From assembly GCA_000004985.1 (NCBI GenBank), contig GG738899.1: a stretch of 64,000 bases of DNA, one strand, 5' to 3'. Shown here piece by piece: positions 26,851 to 48,952 of this stretch. The stretch's first letter is position 1; every line of letters begins with the position of its first letter. The translations under genes were made by a program, and so were the position numbers. This stretch comes from Naegleria gruberi. Its lineage: Eukaryota. The notes under the pieces are model-generated. The model saw only the letters and a program-made list of their open reading frames with translations, had not been told where the DNA came from and searched no databases.

Positions 26851-27951
26851 TTAAACCATTTGATGAGTCATTGGAATGGTAGATGTGGAAAATTGTGGCA
26901 TGAATTGATCTACAAGTATTACTCCTCTATTTCTGAAAAATTCCCTCATATAAGTAGCTCCACTCATCACATCATCTGGAGTCAACTCGAGTGGCTTTGA
27001 AATATTCACCTTCTTTCCATCCTTACTAATCAAAGAAAGGCAAAAATCTGGTTTCTTTCCATCAGAAATCTTGTGAGCTCTAATATCATGAATTTGATCG
27101 TATGGAATTGAATAGGTTGAGAAAATGAAATGTTCTCTCAAATATCTAGCTCTACTTGTCATTCTTACTTCTCTCTTTTCATCATCAAATTCAATAATTG
27201 TAATCTTTTCATAATAAACAATCAAAAATAGAGCAATTGGAGCTGTTACAATGTAAATACCTGCCAAAATAGCCAAACTCAACACCAAAATAATGCACAA
27301 TATGACCATCAATATGAGAACTCCCTCTCCATCACAATTCCAACCGCTACCTGAACAACAATCTGTACAGGAACAGCAGCCACCACAACAACCTCCACAG
27401 CAACCACCTCTAGATCTGGAAGTGGCAGCTACAGCAATTGCAGCTTTTTGATTGGATGTCAAATTTGTTCCATTACCATTGGTTGACAAATCTTCAGATG
27501 GAAGCATTGTAATGTGTGAAATTTGGTTTTTCAAACTGCAAACTCTGAAACAACCAAGAGTTGCACAAAACAAGTAAGTGAGCATGCTGTCTTGATTTTG
27601 CAAGATTAATTCATGTAGAGAGGATGACTTTTGACTGATGAGATTTTGGAAAGTTGTGGTTGTCAACTTTTGCTTACCATTCATCATCACATTATTTGCA
27701 GCAACTGGTGGCATTGTCGGTAAAGGTTGTTGCTGTTGTTGAATCATGACAGGTGGTTGATAGATTTGTTGTTGAACATTTGGAATTGTTTGTGGAGAAT
27801 AGTTTACATTCGGTTGTTGATTAGGATATTGTTGTTGAGAATAGTTTACAATTGGTTGATGAAAATTCGGATTATAGACTTTTTCAACATGTTGATAGGA
27901 AGCAGTGGTTGGCTCGACAAATGGTTTGCTGTTTGGGTCTTGTTGTTGCAT
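26851..27951 (-). CDS. P/Q-rich protein with a (GGCC)n cysteine cluster adjacent to a TM helix, plus a C-terminal globular domain (366 aa)
   Basis: True ATG. N-terminal Q/P/N-rich low complexity with PPxY-like motifs. RGGCCGGCCGGCCSCTDCCSGSGWNCDG, then a hydrophobic helix (LILMVILCIILVLSLAILAGIYIV). No family call. Confidence 0.45.
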   Translation of the reverse strand: MQQQDPNSKPFVEPTTASYQHVEKVYNPNFHQPIVNYSQQQYPNQQPNVNYSPQTIPNVQQQIYQPPVMIQQQQQPLPTMPPVAANNVMMNGKQKLTTTTFQNLISQKSSSLHELILQNQDSMLTYLFCATLGCFRVCSLKNQISHITMLPSEDLSTNGNGTNLTSNQKAAIAVAATSRSRGGCCGGCCGGCCSCTDCCSGSGWNCDGEGVLILMVILCIILVLSLAILAGIYIVTAPIALFLIVYYEKITIIEFDDEKREVRMTSRARYLREHFIFSTYSIPYDQIHDIRAHKISDGKKPDFCLSLISKDGKKVNISKPLELTPDDVMSGATYMREFFRNRGVILVDQFMPQFSTSTIPMTHQMV

Positions 27952-28447
27952 GACAGATTGATGTTTGACTTTTTTTATGAAAGAAAATCAAGTAATTGCG
28001 AGTGAATATTGTGAAATCAAGCCAAACATTGCGCTCCTCCTCTTGGTTGACTTTCCAAATATCGATTCTAATAACATTCAAAGATCTTCTGATTTGGAAT
28101 TATCATTCCACTAACCTTCCACACATGATGAAAATTTGATATTCAAATGTTCATCCAAATTGCATTAAGCTTCCACCTCCACAATAAATGGAACAAATTT
28201 CTGATTGCAAATTAATTTTCAAGCTTTGAGCTTTATAAATTTTGATCCACAAAAAAAACTTGATACAATAGTGGATTTGGTTTGGATAATTACATCATCA
28301 TTTCAACAATTGGAAGTGCTTGAGAGTGTATCATATATTCTTCAGTTAGAACGGTTGTTATTCTGTTTTTGTTTTGATTTTCATACACTTCAACAATTTG
28401 TTGCGAAATTCATTTTAATAAAAATTTACAAATAAAAATCAAAAAAA

Positions 28448-29503
28448 ATGTCCAAATTTGAACTTGAGAATGAATTGTACGAAGCCTTGAAAAAAACACA
28501 AAACAAGGGAGGTGAAGATGATCAACCAACAACAACATTTGCAGAAGAAAATGATGATGCGGAATATGAAGATGATGAAGAATATGATGATGAAGATTTC
28601 GGAGAAGAAGAATATGAAGAAGAAGTTGTAGAAATTAGTGAGAATGAAATGTTAGCCTTGTTGGATCAACAACAAGATCCTTTTGAAGTTTGTCAACAAA
28701 TCTTTGATAAGGAAAAATTATTTGAAGCAAATCCCGAACAAGTCTTGATTGAACCAAATGTAACTGTTCAACATTTTAGAGATTTATATAATAATGGTTA
28801 TGTTGTGGTGGATAATTTCATTCCTTTTGAACAAGCTCAAGAAATTCATGATTTGGCAAAGAAACTTTCACATACTTTTAAACCAGCTTGTGAAATGAAG
28901 ATGAGTTATGAAGATGAAGCAGAGGATACTTTTAGAGATAATACAGCAAGAAGTGATGTGATTCGTTGGTTGCATCCTAAGGATTTTACTTCTGAATTGA
29001 CTGATGAAAGCAAAAAGACATCCCTATCATGTTGTTGTACTGATAGCAGTGAAGATATTATACAATGGAAGGGAAATGAAACTTTGAGAGGAGTTGTTCT
29101 TAACAAGTTTAAAGTCATTCAAAAGAAAATCAATGAATTTGCACCTTGTGTTAAATATGATGATGCTAAAATGGAATTAATGTGGAGCTTGTATAAATCT
29201 CATGGAACTTACTATGAAAAACACAGAGATTCATTCCCAAGCAATGGAAAGGATGAAGGTCCATTGGATCAACGTAAAGTAACTGCCCTCCTCTATATGA
29301 ATACTGAATGGAAAGATGAATCAGATGGTGGCCAATTGAAGATTTTCATCAAACCAGAAAATGCATCCAAACACACTGAAAGAACAACCAAGCTCATTAA
29401 CCCAACTGCTGGTCGTTTAGTTTTATTCTTGAGTGGTGCTCTTGATCATGAAGTGATGGCTTCTTTTAAGGACAGAGTAGCCCTTACTTCTTGGTTGTCA
29501 TAA
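28448..29503 (+). CDS. 2-oxoglutarate/Fe(II)-dependent dioxygenase, prolyl-4-hydroxylase-like, with an acidic N-terminal region (351 aa)
   Basis: True ATG. D/E-rich N-terminus. HxD (YYEKHRDSF) ... GGQLKIF ... NPTAGRLVLFLSGALDHEV matches the P4H / 2OG-oxygenase jelly-roll motifs (HxD...H, RxS). Confidence 0.65.
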   Translation: MSKFELENELYEALKKTQNKGGEDDQPTTTFAEENDDAEYEDDEEYDDEDFGEEEYEEEVVEISENEMLALLDQQQDPFEVCQQIFDKEKLFEANPEQVLIEPNVTVQHFRDLYNNGYVVVDNFIPFEQAQEIHDLAKKLSHTFKPACEMKMSYEDEAEDTFRDNTARSDVIRWLHPKDFTSELTDESKKTSLSCCCTDSSEDIIQWKGNETLRGVVLNKFKVIQKKINEFAPCVKYDDAKMELMWSLYKSHGTYYEKHRDSFPSNGKDEGPLDQRKVTALLYMNTEWKDESDGGQLKIFIKPENASKHTERTTKLINPTAGRLVLFLSGALDHEVMASFKDRVALTSWLS

Positions 29504-29537
29504 ATTTCGCAATTTCTCTAAAGGTGTTTATTTGTAA

Positions 29538-29968
29538 TTACCAACTGGATTGATATTTGAATATGGTATCGTCTGGATAATTCTTAATAGTATCAGAGAT
29601 GAGTTGAACAGTTTGCTTGACATCACCAAAATAATACTCATCATACTGAGTACCTCCAAAGAAAAAGCCTGATCTTGTTGGAAGAAGGAAACTAGCCTTT
29701 GAATGATCTTCATCAACTTGTGTTAAAACACTCAACAATGATTTTAAATGTTGAATTGTTACAGGATATTCGTTGCAATCATCCTCACCACCTAAACATG
29801 ATTCCGATAGGGCAGAGATCAATATGAATCGAATAGAAATTCAGAAATGAATTACGTGAGTGATAACAAACCTTGAACATTCTCAACAAACCAAGCATGG
29901 AGAGCATTAAACTTTCTCCAGTAGGCCACTTCCACTTCTCCAAGAGCCAAAAACATATCCAGACCCAT
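29538..29968 (-). CDS. small conserved-looking protein, 2 exons (29872-29968 and 29538-29791), ~126 aa
   Basis: ATG at 29968. Donor GTTTGT at 29871 and acceptor TTTAG ending at 29792 (80-nt intron, phase 1). The join creates MGLDMFLALGEVEVAYWRKFNALHAWFVENVQ-G-GEDDCNEYPVTIQ.... The downstream track ORF begins at TTG. Confidence 0.4.
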
Positions 29969-30123
29969 GTTGGTGTATTTTTTTCTATTTTGTTTTTATC
30001 TAAGCGAGAGTTGAAATTGCATTTCAAGCCTCATAATTGTGTGATGAGTTTAGAACGAAGGCTTTGCCTTGTTGATAAACAAGCCTTTGGAAGAATTATT
30101 CTTTGAAATAAATCGAATAGAGA

Positions 30124-30996
30124 TTAATCAGAACTATTTATTCTAGCTCGGAGCTTCTTTACTCTTTTCCTCAATTTGATTGGTTTTGTAATTCTATTTT
30201 CCACATCGGACTTGATTTTAGTCTTCTTTACAATAGTTTCTGATTCCTTATCTTCATTTTCAAGTTTGATTCGAGTGTTTGCATATATAGCGTCAGAACT
30301 AGTAGTTGTACCTTGTGTATTAGTGTCATTGGTAGTATTAGTATTATTATTAAACTTAACATTGTTAGTACTATTACCAGCTTGAATATTGTTCAGGCTA
30401 ATACTATTATCATTACTAATTGTATTGTTGCTGTTGCTATTTGTAATAGTATTAGTGTTATTAACCCTATTAGTAGTATTATCAGCTTGAATAGTATTCA
30501 GGCCAATGCTATTATCATTATTACTAATTGTATTGTTATTGCTAGTTGTAATAGTATTAAAATTATTAAATAATTCCTGTCGTGGTTGAATATTAACTTT
30601 AGGTTTGATAGAATAAGTAACTCCATCAACATTAACCAAGCAAGAAATAGGTTTATCCGATGAGAGTGAAATATCCATCATTGAAGTTGATATCATCACT
30701 TGATGTTGTTGTTTCTCCACAGTAGCACCATCACTTATCTGCATACTACTATTGAACGGTGTCAATGCCGGTGCTGATGGTGCTGATGATGATGAAGGAA
30801 TTAATATGTTGCTATCATCAACATTATTAATTCTTGATGATGAACGTGTTGGACGTGGTTTTCTCTTCTTCTTCAATATCTGTTCTTCGTAGAGTTTAAC
30901 AAGATGAGCCTTTAGATGGGCTCCTTTAGGAATTTCAATATTATTCTCTTCAAGAATTTCCTTCAAACCAGCAACAGTGTAACCATTCGCATCCAT
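30124..30996 (-). CDS. SAP-domain protein with an Asn/Thr-rich tandem-repeat region (290 aa)
   Basis: True ATG. N-terminal YTVAGLKEILEENNIEIPKGAHLKAHLVKLYEEQ matches the SAP helix-turn-helix motif. The middle contains two ~100-nt in-frame tandem copies encoding N/T/S-rich sequence. Confidence 0.55.
   Translation of the reverse strand: MDANGYTVAGLKEILEENNIEIPKGAHLKAHLVKLYEEQILKKKRKPRPTRSSSRINNVDDSNILIPSSSSAPSAPALTPFNSSMQISDGATVEKQQHQVMISTSMMDISLSSDKPISCLVNVDGVTYSIKPKVNIQPRQELFNNFNTITTSNNNTISNNDNSIGLNTIQADNTTNRVNNTNTITNSNSNNTISNDNSISLNNIQAGNSTNNVKFNNNTNTTNDTNTQGTTTSSDAIYANTRIKLENEDKESETIVKKTKIKSDVENRITKPIKLRKRVKKLRARINSSD
30370..30575. repeat. ~100-bp tandem duplication (2 copies, ~85% identical) inside the coding sequence of the SAP-domain gene
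   Basis: ACCAGCTTGAATATTGTTCAGGCTAATACTATTATCATTACTAATTGTATTGTTGCTGTTGCTATTTGTAATAGTATTAGTGTTATTAAC is repeated with substitutions. It stays in frame on the minus strand. Confidence 0.7.
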
Positions 30997-31282
30997 TCTT
31001 TGTATTTTTTAAACATCATAGAATTTCAGGGTTGTTTAACCACACTAGTGATTTGCCCACTTCCTAATAGGTAAGTTGGCCCTGTGGTAAAACTTGTCCG
31101 TGTTCTTGCTGTGGTATTGTAGATTCACTTCACCTCTTGATTACGCAGTCATTCAAGTGTGCTCGTGTTGCACGGGAGAAATTCATATTTTTTTTAAATA
31201 AAACTGGTTGGCGATTTACTTAATTATTATGTACAATTAGGGATTATGCAACAATTTCAAGACCATTTAGATTATTTGAACA

Positions 31283-32786
31283 TTATCTTCGTCTAGGTTG
31301 TGGACCATCTCCACTGACACCACTCAAATTAAGCCCAGAGTTTGTACCCATTTGCCTCATTATTCCATTCCAATCTAAATGTTCCAATTCATTATTTCTG
31401 AATGTGTTGAATGCATCTTGAATTTTGGAAGATTTCTTTCTAATTATATTGGGATGATTAGTGCTTTGAAATTGCTTGTAATTGTCCAATAGCTCAACTA
31501 CATCTTTCGAATTCTTTCCACTCCCTCTTGCTATTCTCAGAATTCTTGATTGCATGTCGGATAACTTTGTAAAATCAGCACAATCCAACTCAGTTTCATT
31601 CATAGAGCCCATGATAGTCAAGTATTTCTTTACCTTATATTCTTGACCTTCTATTTTTGGGAATTCACTAAATCCAAATATCATTGACAATACACGCGAT
31701 GGTGGTCCCATGTTCACAATTGAAAGTAGTTGTTCTTTCAAATCCCTCATTGTAAAAACTCCATTTATGGGAAGTGAAGAGTTGAGTACTGAAATTTCAG
31801 TACTGTCACTAGCTTGTGGAACTGCACCGAATAGTATTGTGTAATTTCCCTCTCCCAACAATCTAGAAACAAAACCTTCAACTTCAAATGGTTGCAAACT
31901 ATCATAATATTCACCTGTGCCAATAAAGCTGATTGGTGTCTTGGTTGCAGCAATTGCACTCAAGGCACCTCCACCCTTAGAATGACCATCCAATTTAGTA
32001 AGAATGATACTCCCAAGGGTTGGTATTCTGGATTTGAAAGTAGTTACTTGTTCTTTGATGCTCTGACCTATCTTACTATCCATCACGAGAATAATGTCAT
32101 TTGGAGTTATTGCTTCTGAGATTAGTTTCATTTCTTCAAAAAGTGATTCTTCTTGTATGGTTCTTGCAGAAGTGTCAACAATTATCAAGTCATAATTTTC
32201 TTTTTTAAATGTTTCGACACCATCTTTTGCAATTTTGATGGGATCAGTTTCAAATACATTACCATAAAAGGGAATGGTATCTCTTAATGAATTATGTCTC
32301 AGACTATCAAATGCTCCAGTACGAAATGTATTTGAGTTTACTATTGCACATTTGAAACCTTTCTTTTTATAAAACATTGCAAATTTGCTCGCTGTTGTTG
32401 TTTTACCAGCTCCTCGTAAACCTATTTCAGTAAAATATTAATCGAATCTCTGTAAATTCTCAAAACTTACCAATAAATAAAATGACATTTTGCTTTCCCT
32501 TGACAGGTTTGATCGCTTTCACTCCTGGATCAAATAATTTACACAATTCCTTCTTAAGTATTCGTTTTATATTTTTTTTTCTATTGACATCTTGTGACAT
32601 GTTATCCAATTCTTCTTTAATTCCATTGTAAACCTGCACCACTTGTTCACAATTCACATCAGCTTCCAAAAGTGCCTTACTAATCTCTTTCAAAAATTTA
32701 TTAACACTTTTATCATCCATAACACTTTGGGAATGTATTGTTAAAAGTGCGTTTGAAAGTTGGGAGCTCAATTCTGACAAAATCAT
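31283..32786 (-). CDS. SRP54: signal recognition particle 54-kDa protein (SRP54), 2 exons (32471-32786 and 31283-32421), 484 aa
   Basis: N domain (KELCKLFDPGVKA..KGKQNVILFIG). Donor GTAAGT at 32470 and acceptor AATAG ending at 32422 (49-nt intron, phase 1). Then the G domain GLRGAGKTTTASKFA, ILTKLDGHSKGGGALSAIAATKTPISFIGTGE and a Met-rich M domain. Confidence 0.9.
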
Positions 32787-35660: not shown

Positions 35661-38600
35661 TTAGTTGAGTTTGGATTGTTTAATAAGGTCATTCTTAGAG
35701 TCGAGAATATCATGATAGGATGAATACTCTGAAGTAAAAACTAATCTAGAATAGCTATCTTGCAGATTCATCAATAATTCAGTCTTTAGATCTTTGATAC
35801 ATTCAGTGATTCTTTGGTTATGTGGAGATTTACCTTCCTTGCTGTTAGAAAGTTCAACTGAATTCGAATCTAAGTCCTTGAGAATTGATAGCAAATTCTT
35901 TCTCAAGTTAGATGGGATATTGACCTCATTCACACTTCCACTTTTAATGTAGGTTTCAAATAATGTGGTAAAGAAACTCTTTAGCTCTTTGATTCCTCCA
36001 TTCAAAGCACATTCGTTTTGTTTCAGATAGGTGTATAATTGAACATTTTCCAATGAAAATTCCTTCTTACAAAACCATTCCATCAATGAACAGCCTTCTT
36101 CACTATCCAAAAAGGTTACCAATTCAGAAAATTCTTCTTTTGACTCGTTTGATTTTCTTAATTTGGAAACTAACAACACTAATAACGAATATCCACCAAA
36201 TACAAAACAATAACTAGCCAAATATAAAATTTCAAATGCCATTGAAACAGAATCATTCACAATCATTCTCTTTTGAGATGAAATTCCAGATAATCCAATT
36301 ATTTGATTACAAACAAGGAAAATAAAACACACAACAAAGAAAATCATTTCCACTCTAAAGTAAAGTGGTGAATCAACTCTCGAATACCAATTGACCACTT
36401 GTTTGGCAGGTAAGAGGACGAAATTTGTTTTCTTCTTTGTGTCCATGTTTGTAATTTTTGAAATGATTTCGTCCTTTTTCTGGAAGAAAGAAATGGAATA
36501 ATCCAAAATAATTAATCCAACAATTAGTAAACAAATGGAAAGAATGATACAAGTAAATGAAATGGAAACCACATAGGTGTAATCTCGCCCTACAAGAACA
36601 TTGGTTCTCACTAAAATAACCCACAACGTCCAAAACATTAAGTTTCCAATAAATCCACTAATTAAACTGAGTAACATTATTCTAGTCGAGAGGAAACTCT
36701 TCACTACTTTGAGCACTTTTTCTCCTTCCTTTTTCTCCTTAGAATTGGAAAATATTGCCAATTTGTGATAGAAATATTTCAACAACTCAAATCTCGTCAC
36801 TTGATACAAATACGAAATGAAAGCAGTGATTGTAATAGAGTTTACAATAATTGTAATGATATTAGATAAGATATTAGCTGCCAAATCACCATATTCCCAT
36901 GAAACTGAACTTGACTGAGGTCCATTCACTTGAACCTGTCCAGAAAGCAAAACACTCTTCTGTGTAACCAACAACAATGCTGTCTGAATAATCATTGCTG
37001 ACATTCCAATAAAAGGTGTCACGAATCTACTCTTCACAGGTTGATAATTCCTAAAAACAATCAACAGAACCATCAACACACATGACACTATAAAGAAAAT
37101 ACTGCCATACACAATCTGGGTAATGTAAATTCCTTGCAATTCTTTCGGTTCTCCCTTAGTTGTGTTAAATTCCACAAATGCTGAGAATAAAGTTGTGTGA
37201 TTGCATTGACATTGAATATTGAGAGAGTTTGAAGAGAGGAATTCACATCCGTTGGATTCCCATGATTGGCCAGTTTCGTTCCAGTATTTACAGGCGATGG
37301 AGGAGTTTAGGATAGTGTTGTTATTGAGTGGGAGAGTGATGATGAAAGGTTTGGTTAAATCTTTGATTTCTAATAAGTTTCCTTCTTTGTAAATAGAGAA
37401 TTCTGTAAATGAAGAGAGGGAGTTTGTTAGCGAGAAATTATCTGGTTTGATGTTTTTCGAATATTTGATAAGGGACATACCAAATTGTTTCGAATAACCA
37501 TTATACGAACTCATAACATTATCCAGATCAATTCGTACATCTTTAAAATTGGATTTTTCTCCACCTTCGGTTTGCTCATTCTTAATAAAGTTTGAAGTGT
37601 AGATATCTACACTGCCAGAAGTAAAAATCCTTTTAGAAATGGGAGGATTAGTATTCGAAAGTAACTGTGGTGGCTCACTAAGAATTGCCAATTTTGAAAC
37701 ATGATTGTAAATTCTCGATACATTAGTATTACCCTGATCTAGAATACTTGTAGTTGCCATGAGAATACTGTTCAAATCACTGCTGGAAACAATCTTTTCT
37801 TTTACGAAACCAAACGAATCAAACTGATTCTTATAATTACTTGTTAGATTCAAAAAGTATGAATCAAGCTTTTGAGCAATAACAGAGCTAGCCTCTACCG
37901 ATTTGGAATTCAACAAAACCTTCTTCAACGTGTCAATTACCTGTGATGGATTTTGTTGTGGGATTTCTAATGACTTTACAATTTCCAATAAAACAGAATT
38001 ATCTGACAGAGAATCATATGGAACGACTGTTGAAAGTTTGGAATCTGATTTCAATCTTTCTAATAGAGAAGCCTTTGGGTCAGGAAATGGTAAAACTGAA
38101 AGGTCTCCTGCAAGAGCTTCAATATATTCGAAACCTTGCGAATCTTTAAGAAACAGCATCATGGTTATGTTATTTGTAAAATAGGGAAGATAAACAGAAT
38201 CTATCGAGGCTGTTTCTGTAACATATCGAGTAATTCTCACATTGCTCATGTCCTTGTATTGGAAACCTAAGGCATATTGTAAAGGAGACAGATTAGTCAA
38301 TAAAATAATGTCAAAACTAAACTTTACAAGAGTCTTGAGAGCATAAACTGTTGAGTTTCCACTAACAATTGTGAATTGATTTCTCAATAGTTGTGGCTTT
38401 GAATAAACTGGAATTGTTTCTCGAACAGTTGTCATTTGTAAACCAGACGAAAGTGTAACCTCAAGAGTCAAATCCGAAACTGTTCTCAAAGATTCAACAG
38501 AGAATGATAGTAATGGATTGAATTTGACTGAACTAATTCCATCATATTCTCCTTTTGTAATTCCACTTCTTGTTGATTCTAAAATGGATGTTGTCATTGT

Positions 38601-42558: not shown

Positions 42559-44763
42559 ATGAACAGGTGCCACTTGGTCAACCATGTTTTTCTTTTTCTT
42601 CTCATTGTTGTTATTGTATTCACATGTGGTACATGTAATGGCAACATGTTGCTCCAAGGCAACGATCAAACAGTCTATTACACACTTTACAATAGCATTC
42701 ATCAGAAGGACTATGTATTTCCATATACCTTCCTAAAAGCTTACATGTTGAAAGATAACCCAAAATTACTTTCGTTTAATGTAACAAGGAGTGGCGTTAT
42801 TGATTTATTGAAAGATGAGAAGATGGTAAAAAGTTTAAGAATTGGAATTGTCTCCTCGTGGGATACGACTAAAGACTATCGACAGATCATGAATGATTTC
42901 TTTCGATTTTATCAGCTAGAACACATTGTTGAACAAGTTTCGTTTACAATAGGTAGATATGGCACCTGTCAAGCAAATATTTTCGATAATTTTGACATTA
43001 TTTTCTCACACAACCAAATGTTTTATATGTGGATAAGGATTTTTAGAAATGGGAATCGATCTTACAAGATGGACGACTTTTTATCAGTAACCCTAGCTCC
43101 ATTCTATGTATTTGTTATTACAGAACCTTTGGGACCAATAGAAGAGTATACGGTTCATAATCTTGTATGGAACACAACGTGTAATGATGATGGACTTGAT
43201 TTTATTTCACAACTTGTAAATATTGCTCGTTATGAAACTAAGGTGGAGTACTTTTTCTACACTTCTAAAAGTGGAAATGGCACTCTTTTTGAGAGAGAAG
43301 ACAGATTGTTTATGAGTAGTATGAATGGATTTGATATCATGTATGTTTCTTCACAAGTAGCAGATAATTGGAAGAACAAGATTGTAAACTATTACAATAT
43401 TAATGAAAATACCTCATACCAATCATATCTCCTTCCTCAATGCACCGCTTGTAAGAATGATTATTGTGAAGAGTTTGTATTTGCTGATACTGATTACTGG
43501 ATTATACCTGTAACTCTTTTAATGATCATTCATTATTGTGTAATTTTCTTCTCTGGCTCTTTCAGAACACCAGCATTGAAGATTCGTCTGCTCATACCAT
43601 ATCTGTTACCGATTATTGTTTTTTACTTTGAGATCCACTTTTCTATTATCATTGTTTATAGTTGTAAAAATGTCAGAAATGCCATTAGCGGTTTCATTCT
43701 GACAGGTGGTATTCTGACCTATGCTTTTACAATTATTAGAGTATACTATCTTAGAAACTTGTATCACATTATCAATACAAGAAATATTGAATCCTCTATT
43801 AGGAATATTGCATTCCAAAGAAAGATTTCAGGTCCTCTACCTGGAATATTGCTCACTGGAGGAATAGCATTAATGTTAGTTCCAATATTTGGTTCACCAT
43901 ATTTGGTAGCTATTAGCTCTATAGATGAAATGGATAATTCAGTAATAGTTTTAAATGCACTCTATGCTGTATACATTGGACTTGGATGTTCAATTGGTGG
44001 TATTGCCATAGTATTGGATCTGGTATTCAATAGGAGAAAGTTGAAAGAAAAAGGATTGAAATATGTCCTATTCTTTGATGATCCATTCTTGATTCGTTTA
44101 GAAGTTTTCCTTCTTTCGTTATGTATTGTATTCATTGTTCTAATTTCAATCCCTAGTATTGATTTTCATTCAGCAAGATTTTTCAGATTTATGATTTATG
44201 TCATTGTCATTCTAAACTCTGGTCTTCTTGTATCTTTCAAGCAAATTATTACAAAAGTTTTCAATAGAAAGAAGAAGAATGAAATTTCCAACTTGGAAGT
44301 TTACATGCAAAACTCTGCATTCCAAATAATGATGAAAGAGTATTGTGTGAAAGAAATGTCTTTGGAAAATTATAATTGTTACATGTTTTTGGAACGATTG
44401 AAAGAGAAGACAGATCAATTGATAGATTTGACAGTAATCCAACAATTGGAGAAGGATTACTTCGCGCTTAATTCCATCTATGAGTTGAATATTCCATCAA
44501 ATGTAAGAAAATCATTCTATGAATTACTGAAACAAGTTGAAGATTCACACGCTCAACTCTGTGAAATGGCAGAAAGTAACATGACAGGCATGAACACTTC
44601 TCATGAAAATTCCTCTATACCAAAATATTCTGATTTGATAGAACTTGTGAACATCAATATTATTAGTAATTTGGGGGATACACTCTCAAGGTTGGAAGTA
44701 ACGAACGAATATCAGGTCTGGCAAGAATTGTATGATATCCAATCTAAATCATCAGTAATTTAA
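42559..44763 (+). CDS. 7TM receptor with C-terminal RGS domain (734 aa), paralog of the C-terminal half of the 35661-40166 gene
   Basis: True ATG plus signal peptide, a ~280-aa ectodomain, seven hydrophobic helices, and a C-terminal RGS-like KEMSLENYNCYMFLERL...NIPSNVRKSF. The last parallels NIPSNLRKNL in the neighbouring receptor. Confidence 0.7.
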   Translation: MNRCHLVNHVFLFLLIVVIVFTCGTCNGNMLLQGNDQTVYYTLYNSIHQKDYVFPYTFLKAYMLKDNPKLLSFNVTRSGVIDLLKDEKMVKSLRIGIVSSWDTTKDYRQIMNDFFRFYQLEHIVEQVSFTIGRYGTCQANIFDNFDIIFSHNQMFYMWIRIFRNGNRSYKMDDFLSVTLAPFYVFVITEPLGPIEEYTVHNLVWNTTCNDDGLDFISQLVNIARYETKVEYFFYTSKSGNGTLFEREDRLFMSSMNGFDIMYVSSQVADNWKNKIVNYYNINENTSYQSYLLPQCTACKNDYCEEFVFADTDYWIIPVTLLMIIHYCVIFFSGSFRTPALKIRLLIPYLLPIIVFYFEIHFSIIIVYSCKNVRNAISGFILTGGILTYAFTIIRVYYLRNLYHIINTRNIESSIRNIAFQRKISGPLPGILLTGGIALMLVPIFGSPYLVAISSIDEMDNSVIVLNALYAVYIGLGCSIGGIAIVLDLVFNRRKLKEKGLKYVLFFDDPFLIRLEVFLLSLCIVFIVLISIPSIDFHSARFFRFMIYVIVILNSGLLVSFKQIITKVFNRKKKNEISNLEVYMQNSAFQIMMKEYCVKEMSLENYNCYMFLERLKEKTDQLIDLTVIQQLEKDYFALNSIYELNIPSNVRKSFYELLKQVEDSHAQLCEMAESNMTGMNTSHENSSIPKYSDLIELVNINIISNLGDTLSRLEVTNEYQVWQELYDIQSKSSVI

Positions 44764-45014: not shown

Positions 45015-46343
45015 TTATTTAATAGTGCCTAAGGATTGGTATTTTCTATTTTGATATTTGTAATCCATGTACATATCCATTAATTCTCCAACATTCTTTA
45101 AAAGTTGATAGCAATGCTGCAAGTATTCCACATTTTCTTGCAGAGAGGAAGGTTCCAGCTCCTTCTTACTGTCTAGTACAACTGTTGGCTCTCTAAATTT
45201 TTGAACTATGAACCTTAGTTCATTAATTCGCTTCTTGAGCATGGTAATCAAACGATAATAAATATTGATGGGAGCAGATTGGTTGTTTGCTAGGAATGGT
45301 TCGTTTGATGTAATAGATTTCAATAATAACCTCGATGATTCAGTGTCATCGCTATCGTCCTTGTGGAATTTTTCAATTATGCCATCAACTCTTGTTAAAA
45401 CGTTCTGTTTCAAGTGAAATTTTCTTAGAAAATTCATAGCTAATGTATTAGAATATAGATTGGGATAATATTTGTAATATTCTTTTGATAAAAAGTAAGG
45501 AGAGTCTTCATCAAACTTGTGAACTAGCAGTCCAATTAAAAAGCACCATACAGGAATGAAATGTCTTGGAGATAAGCTGAATTCCTTCTTTGTTGGTACT
45601 AATATTGAAAGAATCTTGTCAATCAAATATTGAGATCCGTACACAGTTGCTGGCATATTTTTTCCTATGAATTTGAAAACAAATGATCGATTCAATTTCC
45701 TCAATTCTTCTGTATCTCCAATAAACTTCTCATTCAATTTGTCATCACTCTCTGTTGCAAAATAGAGATAGCAACCATTTAAATAATTATAACCAAATAA
45801 TGCCCAATATTGTGAATAAGTTGAATATCTCACAATAATCGCTTCTTCTACTCCTCCAATTATAATCCTAATCTTGGAATGATTTCCAGACTCTATGTTT
45901 CCGAATTGAAAAACAGTGAATGGATTATCTAAACTTTTTGTACGCCAAACCTCTTCCACAATAATTCTAGAAAGCACCATTTTGATCAACTGTTCAATGA
46001 AAGGTTCCTGTGTTAGGGATGGATGCGAAAATTGCAGAATATCTAAATCTAAATAATTCTGGCTCGGTAATCGTTCTTTTAAACTTTTTGAAACTCTGCA
46101 CTTGTATTCACTAAAGTGGTTTCTAATTTTGTGTTTCCAAAAGAGATCATTGTCGGAGATGATAGACGATGAAATATTTGTTTTTCCCTTTGTATTATTA
46201 CTCAAGAGGTGAAAGTAAAATTCCCACAATTGATTAGAATTGGCAATTTGATGCCACTCTTTACACACGAGGGATAATTTCACAGTGCGAGAATAATCAA
46301 GAAATGAAAAGATGGTGAAGAGAATGTCTTGCAGTTGACTCAT
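45015..46343 (-). CDS. F-box protein (442 aa)
   Basis: True ATG. N-terminal LQDILFTIFSFLDYSRTVKLSLVCKEWHQI is a canonical F-box. Confidence 0.6.
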   Translation of the reverse strand: MSQLQDILFTIFSFLDYSRTVKLSLVCKEWHQIANSNQLWEFYFHLLSNNTKGKTNISSSIISDNDLFWKHKIRNHFSEYKCRVSKSLKERLPSQNYLDLDILQFSHPSLTQEPFIEQLIKMVLSRIIVEEVWRTKSLDNPFTVFQFGNIESGNHSKIRIIIGGVEEAIIVRYSTYSQYWALFGYNYLNGCYLYFATESDDKLNEKFIGDTEELRKLNRSFVFKFIGKNMPATVYGSQYLIDKILSILVPTKKEFSLSPRHFIPVWCFLIGLLVHKFDEDSPYFLSKEYYKYYPNLYSNTLAMNFLRKFHLKQNVLTRVDGIIEKFHKDDSDDTESSRLLLKSITSNEPFLANNQSAPINIYYRLITMLKKRINELRFIVQKFREPTVVLDSKKELEPSSLQENVEYLQHCYQLLKNVGELMDMYMDYKYQNRKYQSLGTIK

Positions 46344-46564: not shown

Positions 46565-48952
46565 TCATGACTCTGAAGGTTGTTTTCTAATATGTGTAAG
46601 TATTATTGAACTGGAAATATTAAAACTTACCAAATCTCTGGTTATTAATTGATAGAAAATCAATCCTAATGAAAATATATCCGAAGCAAAAGATAATTCC
46701 TTATCGTTGTGTCTGCAATGATATTCAGGAATAAATACATTATATAACAATTGATTAGGTATGCCTTTTTCTAATTCTGAAACATCCATGACAGAGTCCA
46801 ATACTGAAATCATAATTTCCATACTCTGCCATGAGGAGAGATGGAAACGAATGTTTTCACAACATAAACCCAAGTGAACTTTCTTTCTCTCATGAATATG
46901 AACTACTGCATCACACAGTTGAGCCATCGCATTCTTGAGAAGAGAGGAAACAATCTTTTCCTCTGTGAGCTTATTTGATTTACAAAAGTCCAATAAGTTT
47001 CCTCCTTTCAAATGAGTAGTAATAATGTAAAAACTCCTCTCATCTGTAAATTCCTCTACCTTTTGAACAATATGTTCATGATGGAACTGATATTGCAAGA
47101 GCTGAATTTGTTAGTTTACAATTAAAATATAACAACTTACATTTTTACAAAATACTCCAAAGTGTAAAAACATGAATGTGGCAACTTCCTTGTCATTATT
47201 CTTGATATCAGCACAAAGGAAACTTATAATACCAGATTCTAAACCAGCAATGTCAATCTTTCTTATCATTTTGTATCTTCCATTGAGAAGAACAGACGAG
47301 TATCTCTTCTTATCATCTTTAGGAACAGCCTCACTTGTAGGATTGGTAACTGGAACTGGAAGTAATATTTGTTCTAATTGTTTCTCCAATGTGAAAAATC
47401 CATTATCTCTAAACGATTCTAATATTCTTACGACTTGATAAGCTTGAGGTCTGAGATAGGCCTTTCTTTGAAGCATGGAAATTACCAGTCTTTGTACGAG
47501 TGGAGGGAATCCATTTCTCTCCAATGTCTTACAAAGTCTGAAATGGGTCGCCGCTTGATTGTTTCTAATTGCTTCATGCATTAGGAATCTTTGACCGTTG
47601 ATTGTCAAATCTCTTTCTAGAGTTAATAACTCATAGAATACACATCCCAACGAAAATATATCACCTGACCTGTCAATTTTAAGATTAGAATCCATATATT
47701 CAGGAGCCATTGTTAATGGTGTTCCCTTTCTACTGACACTTGCTCTTGGATCCCATCTTGTCAACAAACCGAAATCTGAAATCTTACAGAATAGTTTACC
47801 ATTCTTTTCGGAATCAAGAAGAATATTCTCAGATTTCAAATCTCTATAGATGAAATTTTGGTAATGGAGCTGGTCTATTCCTGTTGAAATGTCAATTGCA
47901 AACGAAAGCCACTCTGGGTAATGTAAATAATTTGGATCGTTTCTATACTGATTCAAATGATCAAAAAGAGTTCCGTGAGGGATAAAGTTCATTACTACAT
48001 TGAGTCCATAATCATTGAACATTTCTCCTTTTCTCTCTACGAATTTCTTTACAATTGTTACCAAGTTCTTGTGATCAGATATTTTCATAACTAGATCCAA
48101 ATGTCTATTCATTTCCTTGATTTTATCCTGATCCATAACTTCAGTACATCGTTTAAGGGCTACAAATGAATGAGTAGTTCTGTCAAAACATTTAAAAACT
48201 GCTCCTTCAGTTCCTTCTCCCATCTTTTTCAAAATGATATAGTGGTTTCCATAGACGACCATATTTGGAGGTTTCCACTTTGGTCCATCAGTAGAAAGGC
48301 AATTCATGATAAGATGCTTTAGCAAAAGCAACCCCTTGTTTTCTATTGAAAGCTTGTTCAATTCCCTAATAAGAGTAATTCCAAAATTCCACATGTGTGT
48401 ACTGATAAAGTTTGACACTTGTTTTTCTGAAATTCTAATATTGTGTTACTAGTAAATCCAATGCTATCTTACTTACCTCTTGTTAAGAGTATTTGGTCCA
48501 GAAAATCCCTCCTTTTGGAAAAATTTTGAAATAGATTCCTCATGTGAACTCAAAATAGCTGATAATAAAATGTGCTGCTCAGAGTCTACATTGCAGAATG
48601 ATTTGGTGAATGCTTCCTTCTTTGATAATAGTTTGACAGCTAAACAAATTGTGATGGCTATAAAGACAGTTTCTGCTTTTGAAACATAATTGAAAGGAGT
48701 GTTCTTTAGCATACGGAACACGTCCTTCCTATTTTCCTTCACATTAGTTAGATTTAGAATTTGGAAGCAGTAAGATCTCATCTCTTCAAATGTTGTTGGA
48801 ATTACATTTTGTACAACGTTGAGGGTGTTTACAATATCTGTATCAGTATATTTTGATTGATCCGCAATATAATAGTACAACTCTGTTATCCATACTGTCA
48901 TGTTATTCTCAAAACAAAATTGAATTTCCTTTGAAAGAACGTGGGGCTTCAT
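46565..48952 (-). CDS. protein kinase with an N-terminal unknown domain, a catalytic kinase domain and a C-terminal pseudokinase-like domain; 3 exons (48477-48952, 47141-48434, 46565-47101), ~768 aa
   Basis: ATG at 48952. Donor GTAAGT at 48476 and acceptor TATTAG ending at 48435 (42-nt intron, phase 2). It continues into the kinase domain (GEGTEGAVFKC, VALKR, YRDLKSENILL, ISDFGL, TPLTMAPE). Donor GTAAGT at 47140 and acceptor ATTCAG ending at 47102 (39-nt intron containing AACTAAC) continues into a degenerate kinase-like domain (HLGLCCENIRFH in place of HRDLKPEN). The track ORFs start at GTG and TTG. Confidence 0.7.

What the first reader, a model, noticed from the sequence alone, without database searches (positions are those of the whole stretch)
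35661..44763. Two paralogous 7TM-RGS receptors flank the RSAD1 gene; one carries an adhesion-GPCR-type EGF/GPS ectodomain
Both genes end in an RGS domain directly after a 7TM bundle (KEFSLENVQLY...NIPSNLRKNL versus KEMSLENYNCYMF...NIPSNVRKSF). A receptor that carries its own GTPase-accelerating domain is known from plant RGS1-type proteins. The 1501-aa copy additionally has Cys-rich EGF-like repeats, an S/T stalk and a GPS-like autoproteolysis motif (C.CNHTTLFSAF) immediately before helix 1, so it is an adhesion-GPCR/RGS hybrid. The two genes are divergently oriented around the RSAD1 gene, which suggests a local duplication with domain gain or loss.
Basis: partly seen in the sequence, partly recalled or inferred. 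Interest (0 to 1): 0.6.

Follow-up and report, generated by a model that had tools for sequence, protein, structure and literature searches.

The report
Two Naegleria 7TM-RGS receptor genes
The window is Naegleria gruberi DNA, and the two genes are distant members of the amoeba's large family of seven-helix membrane proteins with a built-in G-protein "off-switch" (RGS) domain; this family, including versions with adhesion-receptor-like outer parts, was already described and biochemically tested in Naegleria fowleri in 2022.

Summary
Gene A (35661-40166, minus strand, 1501 aa) encodes signal peptide, EGF repeats, a GAIN-like domain with a GPS motif, 7 TM helices and an RGS box. EGF, GPS and RGS pass Pfam thresholds. 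An AlphaFold model matches CD97, BAI2/3, GPR110 and GPR126 GAIN structures and RGS crystal structures. Gene B (42559-44763, plus strand, 734 aa) is 100% identical to N. gruberi XP_002672219.1. It has 7 TM helices and a divergent RGS box that is below the Pfam cut-off but supported by profile comparisons and conserved G-alpha-contact residues. The gene between them is HemW/RSAD1.

Three parts of the interpretation fail.
- The architecture is not new. Bosch, Jeck and Siderovski (JBC 2022) reported 28 N. fowleri 7TM-RGS proteins, several with GPS, EGF and lectin ectodomains, and demonstrated GAP activity for three of four RGS domains tested.
- The 7TM bundle is not detectably of the adhesion/secretin (7tm_2) family. 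Only the ectodomain is adhesion-like.
- A and B are not a recent local duplicate. B ranks 96th of 99 relatives of A, and each has far closer paralogs on other scaffolds.

No S/T-rich stalk exists.

Verdict: ordinary new members of a known kind. Small additions here are the predicted GAIN fold, a family-wide H-T-T GPS variant, and a Pfam-invisible B-type subfamily.

The parts
35661..40166 (-). Gene A: single-exon ORF of 1501 aa encoding a GAIN/GPS-EGF type 7TM-RGS protein
   Evidence: ORF listing; Pfam EGF, GPS and RGS; closest relatives are N. gruberi P0001, P0029 and P0030 and N. lovaniensis P0026
40089..40166 (-). A signal peptide (about aa 1-26)
   Evidence: N-terminal hydrophobic segment, Kyte-Doolittle score 2.52
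39060..39575 (-). A EGF-like repeats (aa 198-369)
   Evidence: Pfam EGF_Teneurin 1.4e-11, EGF_2 3.1e-7, EGF_TEN covering aa 198-369; 4-9 Cys per 50-aa window across aa 176-375
38076..39059 (-). A middle ectodomain region (aa 370-697), fold unknown, many N-glycosylation sequons; not an S/T mucin stalk
   Evidence: No Pfam hit at E<=10; S/T fraction at most 0.34
37170..38075 (-). A GAIN-like domain (aa 698-999): helical subdomain aa 698-829 and beta-sandwich subdomain aa 846-999
   Evidence: AF2 secondary structure; Foldseek hits to CD97, BAI2, BAI3, GPR110 and Gpr126 GAIN structures, E from 2.8e-7 to 6e-4
37182..37295 (-). A GPS motif (aa 958-995), with H990-T991|T992 at the position of the adhesion-GPCR H-L|T/S cleavage site (nt 37191-37199), followed by TLFSAFVE
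   Evidence: Pfam GPS 33.6 bits; alignments to CELSR1 and ADGRL3; invariant C, W, G, C, C, C, H, T, F, F columns; H-T-T in 86 of 112 GPS-bearing hits
36165..37133 (-). A seven-transmembrane bundle (aa 1012-1334)
35697..36134 (-). A RGS box (about aa 1345-1490), with S1371/E1373/N1374, N1416 and D1470/S1471/R1474
   Evidence: Pfam RGS 27.9 bits, above the 23.9 cut-off; alignment to RGS16; Foldseek RGS9, RGS16, RGS1 and RGS4 with target-normalised TM-score 0.6-0.8
40445..41954 (+). HemW/RSAD1 radical-SAM heme chaperone gene, two exons with a 46-nt intron at 41486-41531. It is a neighbour, not part of the receptor system
   Evidence: Pfam Radical_SAM and HemN_C; NCBIfam TIGR00539 225 bits against a 205 cut-off; GT...AG intron read from the sequence, with exon 2 in frame
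42559..44763 (+). Gene B: 734-aa 7TM-RGS protein without GPS or EGF, identical to NAEGRDRAFT_72711 / XP_002672219.1
   Evidence: 100% identity over 100% coverage; accessions
42643..43473 (+). B ectodomain (aa 29-305), unknown fold, conserved in paralogs P0024 and P0025
   Evidence: No Pfam hit; alignment A2; AF2 model too poor to use
43474..44250 (+). B seven-transmembrane bundle (aa 306-564), homologous to that of A
   Evidence: Hydropathy; hhalign on the 7TM alone, A-type against B-type: 92.8% probability, E=4e-7, 190 columns
44290..44748 (+). B divergent RGS box (about aa 578-730), with S601/E603/N604, N644 and D707/T708/R711
   Evidence: Pfam RGS only 11 bits. B-group profile against PDB: top hit RGS17 at E=0.007, then GAIP and RGS3 at E=0.4-0.5, interleaved with two weak HSP90 matches to the N-terminal region. 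RGS is the only Pfam family hit by all three B-group members, best E=0.0017. hhalign to the A-group: 99.2% probability

Best explanation
A and B are two anciently diverged members of the Naegleria 7TM-RGS family of receptor-type GTPase-activating proteins. They sit by chance on either side of the HemW/RSAD1 gene in the N. gruberi genome.

Shown here: each protein has a signal peptide, an extracellular domain, a GPCR-fold seven-helix bundle and a cytosolic RGS box that keeps the G-alpha-contact residues. A's ectodomain has EGF repeats, about 330 aa of unknown fold, and a GAIN-like domain with a GPS motif abutting TM1. B's ectodomain is an unrelated domain of about 275 aa.

Inferred from published work on N. 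fowleri homologs and on Arabidopsis AtRGS1: the RGS box accelerates GTP hydrolysis on Naegleria G-alpha subunits, some of which exchange nucleotide spontaneously. The protein therefore holds G signalling off. Engagement of the ectodomain (surface or matrix contact for A, an unknown ligand for B) would change the GAP output or the location of the protein and so release signalling.

More speculative: A's conserved H-T|T-x-F-x-x-F segment may act like the autoproteolytic site and tethered peptide of adhesion GPCRs.
For: - Organism: B is 100% identical to an N. gruberi protein.
- Family: exhaustive HMMER search with A's GPS-7TM-RGS region finds 68 cluster representatives at E<=1e-30, most of them matched along nearly the whole GPS-7TM-RGS query. 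Of ten hits whose source was looked up, three are from N. gruberi and one from N. fowleri.
- Published description: 28 N. fowleri 7TM RGS proteins, several with GPS motifs, EGF repeats and lectin domains. The RGS domains of Nf 7TM RGS2, RGS3 and RGS4 act as GAPs on Nf G-alpha 2, 3, 5 and 7, and G-alpha 5 and 7 are self-activating (PMC9283941).
- Domains of A.
- A and B share a 7TM core: 99.2% probability over 374 columns, and 92.8% (E=4e-7) on the 7TM alone.
- RGS contact positions: N of (E)VNIP is kept in 98 of 100 family sequences, D of D(S/T)xxR in 96 of 100, and R in 97 of 100. The positions are assigned by the RGS16 and RGS17 alignments.
- GPS core residues are invariant across 16 members.
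Against: - No functional data exist for these two proteins.
- B's RGS fails the Pfam threshold and B's structure model is unusable (pLDDT 39.5).
- A's model is of only medium confidence (pLDDT 63, six-sequence alignment).
- Position -1 of the GPS is Thr, not Leu, so autoproteolysis is uncertain.
- How ectodomain events would alter GAP activity is unknown even for the N. fowleri proteins. The 2022 authors say so themselves.
- The conservation of the S-x-E-N motif reported is circular, because sequences were selected on that motif.
Confidence: 0.85

Rival explanations
1. A is a genuine adhesion (class B2, 7tm_2) GPCR that gained an RGS domain. It would then be a GEF-type receptor with a fused GAP, which is the first reader's 'hybrid'.
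For: GAIN/GPS directly before TM1. Full-length CD97 is the top Foldseek hit, with 644 aligned columns. Sequence matches to ADGRL3 and ADGRF1 extend through TM1, and for ADGRF1 into TM2. The T-x-F-x-x-F pattern after the GPS resembles the tethered agonist.
Confidence: 0.1
2. A and B arose from a local (inverted) duplication around RSAD1, followed by gain or loss of the EGF/GAIN ectodomain.
For: Head-to-head placement 2.4 kb apart with one gene between them. F-box genes flank both in mirror image. They are the only two family members in the 64-kb window.
Against: Only 25% identity over the C-terminal 236 aa. In a neighbour-joining tree of 100 family sequences, A and B fall in different deep clades, and B ranks 96th of 99 by distance from A. 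B's closest paralogs (49% and 47% identity) and A's closest paralogs are on other scaffolds. The flanking F-box proteins share no similarity outside the F-box. With dozens of family genes per genome, adjacency by chance is plausible.
Confidence: 0.05
3. B's C-terminal domain is a degenerate RGS-like fold that no longer acts as a GAP. It would then serve as a scaffold or as an effector-type RGS-homology domain.
For: Pfam RGS score is 11 bits, against a 23.9 cut-off. The single-sequence PDB search gives only E=0.47. A long insert lies between the NIPS loop and the final helices.
Against: S601, E603, N604, N644, D707 and R711 occupy the G-alpha-contact positions seen in the RGS17, RGS16 and A alignments. 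The whole domain is highly conserved among B, P0024 and P0025.
Confidence: 0.15
4. A is a polycystin-1/REJ-like protein (GPS plus a multi-pass channel-associated membrane domain), not a GPCR-fold protein.
For: GPS/GAIN also occurs in polycystin-1. Several Naegleria EGF-rich hits, including A's relative P0002, carry precomputed Pfam REJ (PF02010) matches.
Confidence: 0.02

Closest known systems
Naegleria fowleri 7TM RGS proteins (Nf 7TM RGS1-4 and 24 others; Bosch, Jeck and Siderovski, J Biol Chem 2022, PMC9283941)
   Same: Same genus and same architecture: signal peptide, EGF/lectin/GPS ectodomain, 7TM, C-terminal RGS. An N. fowleri protein (P0039/P0176) matches A's GPS-7TM-RGS region at E=7.5e-99. 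The published RGS domains are proven GAPs for Naegleria G-alpha subunits.
   Different: A and B are N. gruberi genes and are not the proteins that were assayed. The paper does not address the GAIN fold, the H-T-T site or a tethered peptide: none of 'autoproteolysis', 'tethered' or 'GAIN domain' occurs in its text. B-type members lack a Pfam-significant RGS and may have been missed by HMM-based counts; this last point is inference.
Arabidopsis thaliana AtRGS1 (plant 7TM-RGS)
   Same: 7TM bundle fused to a C-terminal RGS box. It acts as a receptor-GAP on a self-activating G-alpha, which is the functional model used here (established knowledge; summarised in PMC9283941 and PMC3971589).
   Different: AtRGS1 has no large ectodomain, no GPS/GAIN and no EGF repeats. 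Homology of its 7TM to the Naegleria 7TM was not tested here.
Metazoan adhesion GPCRs (ADGRE5/CD97, ADGRL3, ADGRB2/3, ADGRF1, ADGRG6)
   Same: EGF-containing ectodomain. GAIN-like fold with a GPS motif immediately before TM1. The Cys/Trp/His/Thr/Phe GPS core is conserved. The post-GPS pattern T-x-F-x-x-(F/L) is hydrophobic.
   Different: The 7TM is not detectably 7tm_2. Position -1 of the site is Thr, not Leu. The cytosolic tail is an RGS GAP domain, so the output is predicted to be G-protein deactivation rather than activation.
7TM-RGS proteins of other protists and early-branching opisthokonts (Trichomonas, chytrids, filastereans, ichthyosporeans)
   Same: General 7TM plus RGS fusion, reported as widespread in de Mendoza et al. 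2014 (PMC3971589).
   Different: Whether those 7TM domains are homologous to the Naegleria 7TM was not tested. None of the papers read here reports a GAIN/GPS ectodomain for them.

Membership tests
Naegleria-type 7TM-RGS receptor-GAP family | Seven-helix membrane bundle N-terminal to the RGS box | tested here: met
Naegleria-type 7TM-RGS receptor-GAP family | C-terminal RGS box recognised by profile or structure (gene A) | tested here: met
   Pfam RGS 27.9 bits, above 23.9. RGS16 at E=0.006. Foldseek RGS9, RGS16, RGS1 and RGS4 with target-normalised TM-score 0.6-0.8.
Naegleria-type 7TM-RGS receptor-GAP family | C-terminal RGS box recognised by profile or structure (gene B) | tested here: inconclusive
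   Pfam score is 11 bits, below the 23.9 cut-off. The B-group profile finds RGS17 at E=0.007 as the top PDB hit. hhalign to the A-group gives 99.2% probability. Contact residues are present. The structure model is unusable.
Naegleria-type 7TM-RGS receptor-GAP family | Sequence homology to the described N. fowleri family members | tested here: met
   N. fowleri P0039/P0176 matches A aa 906-1497 at E=7.5e-99. B is linked only through A-type profiles.
Naegleria-type 7TM-RGS receptor-GAP family | GAP activity on G-alpha | not testable with these tools
   Shown only for Nf 7TM RGS2, RGS3 and RGS4 in PMC9283941.
Adhesion GPCR (class B2) | GAIN domain containing the GPS motif directly before TM1 | tested here: met
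   Pfam GPS 33.6 bits. Foldseek to GAIN crystal structures at E from 4e-6 to 6e-4 and to CD97 at 2.8e-7. The model is of medium confidence.
Adhesion GPCR (class B2) | 7TM domain of the secretin/adhesion family (Pfam 7tm_2) | tested here: not met
Adhesion GPCR (class B2) | Canonical H-L|T/S autoproteolysis triad | tested here: inconclusive
   H990 and T992 are present, but position -1 is T991. H-T-T occurs in 86 of 112 GPS-bearing hits; H-L-T occurs only in hits that match A's query over the GPS region alone, such as metazoan-type adhesion receptors and GPS-kinases.
Adhesion GPCR (class B2) | Autoproteolytic cleavage and tethered-agonist activation | not testable with these tools
   Only the sequence pattern T-x-F-x-x-F-(V/I/L) is seen, with F at +3 and +6 invariant in alignment A3.
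HemW/RSAD1 (the gene in between) | Radical-SAM core plus HemN_C domain scoring above the equivalog cut-off | tested here: met
   TIGR00539 at 225.1 bits against a 205.4 cut-off. Pfam Radical_SAM and HemN_C.
Polycystin-1/REJ-like GPS proteins | PLAT domain after TM1, 11 TM segments, REJ module | tested here: not met
   Seven TM segments. No PLAT, REJ or PKD hits.

The most novel reading that the evidence does not exclude
In the GAIN-bearing Naegleria 7TM-RGS proteins such as A, the conserved H-T|T-x-F-x-x-F segment is a working autoproteolysis site and tethered peptide. When exposed by force or by shedding of the ectodomain, it switches the activity or trafficking of an intramolecular GAP rather than a GEF. 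GAIN-mediated mechanosensing would then have been wired to a non-class-B seven-helix bundle, with the opposite sign of output, in a lineage far from animals. A further corollary is that B-type members with Pfam-invisible RGS boxes make the family larger than published counts suggest.
Probability: 0.2. Interest if true: 0.6.

Novelty: new member of a known kind. Interest (0 to 1): 0.25.

Why it matters
The value is mainly in bookkeeping. It identifies the window as N. gruberi and attaches a function class to a 'predicted protein' (NAEGRDRAFT_72711) that carries no precomputed Pfam domains. It also flags a 1501-aa gene whose product was not found in public protein collections.

Biologically, the family is the main candidate for how Naegleria senses surfaces and prey through G proteins, and 7TM-RGS proteins have been proposed as drug targets in the pathogenic N. 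fowleri. Three points could guide experiments on whether GAIN/tethered-peptide signalling can drive a GAP:
- The adhesion-like part is a modular ectodomain on a non-class-B bundle.
- The GPS site is uniformly H-T-T across the family.
- A GAIN fold is predicted.

None of this overturns current understanding.

Tried and rejected
- Exact-sequence look-ups of A, B and P0023 in the gene-position index found nothing, so N. gruberi synteny and gene models could not be inspected.
- N. lovaniensis P0026, a possible A ortholog, lies at a contig end. Its upstream neighbours are missing and its downstream genes do not resemble those in the window.
- The AF2 model of B reached only pLDDT 39.5. Its Foldseek search gave nothing below E=0.59, only faint type-II periplasmic-binding-protein-like hits. 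These were not used as evidence.
- The afdb50 fold library was unavailable.
- Pfam scans of A's N-terminal region, A's middle region and B's ectodomain gave nothing useful. The lectin idea for A aa 97-175 rests only on a match to GAFP-1 at E=0.2.
- An inverted two-gene duplication (F-box plus receptor) was considered because of the mirror-image F-box genes. It was rejected because the F-box proteins are unrelated outside the F-box.
- The word-index homolog search proved incomplete: it missed P0001 when queried with A's C-terminal part. Absence of hits in that tool was therefore not used as evidence.
- The choanoflagellate GPCR paper had nothing on GAIN-RGS fusions.

Full report
**What is there**

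The region holds three genes.
- Gene A (35661-40166, minus strand) is an uninterrupted 1501-aa ORF.
- A two-exon radical-SAM gene lies at 40445-41954 on the plus strand.
- Gene B (42559-44763, plus strand) is a 734-aa ORF.

The middle gene scores above the equivalog cut-off for HemW, the bacterial counterpart of RSAD1 (TIGR00539, 225 bits against 205). It has a 46-nt GT...AG intron at 41486-41531 that keeps the frame.

**Organism**

B is 100% identical over its full length to Naegleria gruberi XP_002672219.1 / NAEGRDRAFT_72711, an unnamed 'predicted protein' with no precomputed Pfam domain. The window is therefore N. gruberi nuclear DNA. This fits its roughly 34% GC and its short, sparse introns.

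The exact product of A is not in the 15-billion-sequence collection. An exhaustive HMMER search found nothing closer than 49% identity. A may therefore lack a correct public gene model, but this could not be proven: the gene-position index does not hold this genome.

**Domains of A**

- Pfam passes the gathering score for EGF_Teneurin and EGF_2 (aa 198-369), GPS (aa 958-995, 33.6 bits) and RGS (aa 1352-1440, 27.9 bits).
- Hydropathy gives a signal peptide and seven membrane segments between aa 1012 and 1334.
- An AlphaFold2 model of aa 680-1501 was built on a six-sequence alignment (mean pLDDT 63, so medium confidence). It shows a helical subdomain, a beta sandwich ending in the GPS strand, seven long helices and a helical C-terminal domain.
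- Foldseek against the PDB puts full-length inactive CD97 first (E=2.8e-7). The GAIN crystal structures of BAI2, BAI3, GPR110 and Gpr126 follow (4e-6 to 6e-4), then many RGS-domain structures with target-normalised TM-score 0.6-0.8.

The 'S/T stalk' is not there. The richest 50-aa windows reach an S/T fraction of 0.30-0.34 against a mean of 0.18, without proline enrichment. The 330 aa between the EGF repeats and GAIN have no Pfam match.

**GPS details**

Across 16 family members the GPS core (C, W, G-C, C-x-C, H, T, F, F) is invariant. The site reads H-T-T, not the canonical H-L-T/S, in 86 of 112 GPS-bearing hits. H-L-T appears only in hits that match A solely through the GPS region; those checked are genuine 7tm_2 adhesion receptors or GPS-kinases.

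The general base His and the nucleophile Thr are thus present, but position -1 is unusual, so cleavage is uncertain. The following T-x-F-x-x-F-(V/I/L)-E segment has the hydrophobic spacing of adhesion-GPCR tethered agonists. This comparison rests on my own knowledge of those structures and was not tested.

**The 7TM bundle**

A 16-sequence profile of GPS plus 7TM hits 20 adhesion-GPCR chains in the PDB. The alignments cover only the GPS and TM1, and at most TM2. No member hits Pfam 7tm_2 even at E<=10. Profile-profile comparison of the 7TM alone against four verified 7tm_2 receptors gives 0.2% probability.

A defining feature of adhesion-GPCR membership was therefore tested and not met. The protein resembles an adhesion GPCR in its ectodomain only.

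**Gene B**

Pfam sees RGS at only 11 bits (E=0.58), and the AF2 model is unusable (pLDDT 39.5). Other evidence supports a divergent RGS box:
- Against the PDB, a profile of B and its two paralogs finds RGS17 at the top (E=0.007), with GAIP and RGS3 at E=0.4-0.5; the only other matches are two weak HSP90 hits to the N-terminal region.
- RGS is the only Pfam family hit by all three B-group members (best E=0.0017).
- The B-group aligns collinearly to the A-group from the first intracellular loop to the end of the RGS box (99.2% probability, E=8e-20, 374 columns).
- The 7TM parts alone still give 92.8% probability, E=4e-7.

The residues that align with the G-alpha-contact positions of RGS16 and RGS17 are present in both proteins. 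In A they are S1371/E1373/N1374, N1416 and D1470/S1471/R1474. In B they are S601/E603/N604, N644 and D707/T708/R711.

Across 100 family sequences the Asn of (E)VNIP is kept in 98, and the Asp and Arg of D(S/T)xxR in 96 and 97. The S-x-E-N conservation in that table is circular, because sequences were selected on that motif.

B is best read as a 7TM-RGS protein with a divergent but probably competent RGS box and an unrelated ectodomain of unknown fold.

**Relationship of A and B**

Direct BLASTP aligns only TM6 to RGS, at 25% identity. B's nearest relatives are P0024 and P0025 (49% and 47% identity over the full length), on other N. gruberi scaffolds. A's nearest relatives are P0001, P0029 and P0030 (N. 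gruberi, other scaffolds) and P0026 (N. lovaniensis).

In a neighbour-joining tree of 100 family sequences the two fall in separate deep clades, and B is 96th of 99 in distance from A. No other family member lies in the window.

F-box genes flank the pair in mirror image, which briefly suggested an inverted two-gene duplication. They share nothing beyond the F-box.

The two genes are members of one superfamily but not recent local duplicates. In a genome with dozens of such genes, adjacency is most simply chance.

**What is already known**

Bosch, Jeck and Siderovski (J Biol Chem 2022, PMC9283941) reported 28 transcribed 7TM RGS proteins in N. fowleri. They noted that a number carry GPS motifs, EGF-like repeats and lectin domains 'reminiscent of the adhesion GPCRs'. 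They showed that recombinant RGS domains of Nf 7TM RGS2, RGS3 and RGS4 bind G-alpha subunits and accelerate their GTP hydrolysis, including the self-activating G-alpha 5 and G-alpha 7.

De Mendoza et al. 2014 (PMC3971589) had already noted 7TM-RGS architectures in many bikonts and in some early-branching opisthokonts. An N. fowleri protein is among A's strong hits (E=7.5e-99). The finding is therefore a pair of N. gruberi members of a described family.

**Mechanism**

Shown here: the topology, the GAIN-like, GPCR-fold and RGS folds of A, the homologous 7TM-RGS core of B, and conserved G-alpha-contact residues.

Inferred from the N. fowleri and AtRGS1 literature: these are receptor-type GAPs that keep spontaneously exchanging G-alpha subunits in the GDP state. 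Ectodomain engagement would modulate GAP output or localisation.

Speculative: A's GPS is cleaved and its post-GPS peptide acts as a tethered ligand.

**Score**

Interest is low to moderate (0.25). However, the architecture is published, the 'hybrid' label overstates the evidence, and the duplication idea fails.

The modest additions are:
- a predicted GAIN fold;
- the family-wide H-T-T GPS site;
- the lack of 7tm_2 affinity in the 7TM bundle;
- a B-type subfamily whose RGS box escapes Pfam;
- a possibly unannotated gene A.

Noticed in passing
window 35661-40166 (-): The exact 1501-aa product of gene A is absent from the 15-billion-protein collection, and the best exhaustive-search hit is only 49% identical. 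The neighbouring gene B is present at 100%. Gene A may be unannotated or mis-modelled in the public N. gruberi annotation.
   Followed up: partly
proteins P0128 and P0141 (hits; Pfam): Two database proteins combine a GPS motif (canonical H-L-T), a membrane segment and a protein kinase domain. These are GPS-bearing receptor kinases of unknown organism, so the GPS module is also attached to non-7TM receptors.
   Followed up: no
window 32961-34277 (+) and 45015-46343 (-): Two F-box protein genes flank the A-RSAD1-B block in mirror-image orientation. They share no similarity outside the F-box, so they do not support an inverted duplication.
   Followed up: yes
window 42643-43473 (+), B ectodomain aa 29-305: This domain is conserved in paralogs P0024 and P0025 and has no Pfam match. 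The low-confidence model shows an alternating alpha/beta pattern. It gives only faint hits (E>=0.6) to type-II periplasmic-binding-protein folds (HitA/FbpA, HisG, Thi5, HisJ). This is a possible ligand-binding module, unverified.
   Followed up: partly
window about 39642-39878 (-), A aa 97-175: Weak similarity (E=0.2) to the monocot mannose-binding lectin GAFP-1 (1xd5), with no Pfam B_lectin hit. It is compatible with the 'lectin domains' reported for the N. fowleri relatives, but unproven.
   Followed up: partly
window 34282-35205 (-): A 307-aa lysine-rich ORF with no Pfam match lies directly downstream of gene A and is overlapped by a 110-aa ORF on the opposite strand. Its coding status is unknown.
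   Followed up: no
window 58001-60000: GC content (0.379) and GC skew (+0.27) spike here. The spike coincides with a 529-aa ORF on the minus strand that carries a CBFB_NFYA (NF-YA) domain.
   Followed up: no
window 26851-32377 and 47111-48418: Ordinary eukaryotic housekeeping and signalling neighbours: an SRP54 fragment (31283-32377, minus strand), a HeH/LEM-like protein, a 2OG-Fe(II) oxygenase and a protein kinase. They are consistent with a normal nuclear gene-dense region.
   Followed up: no
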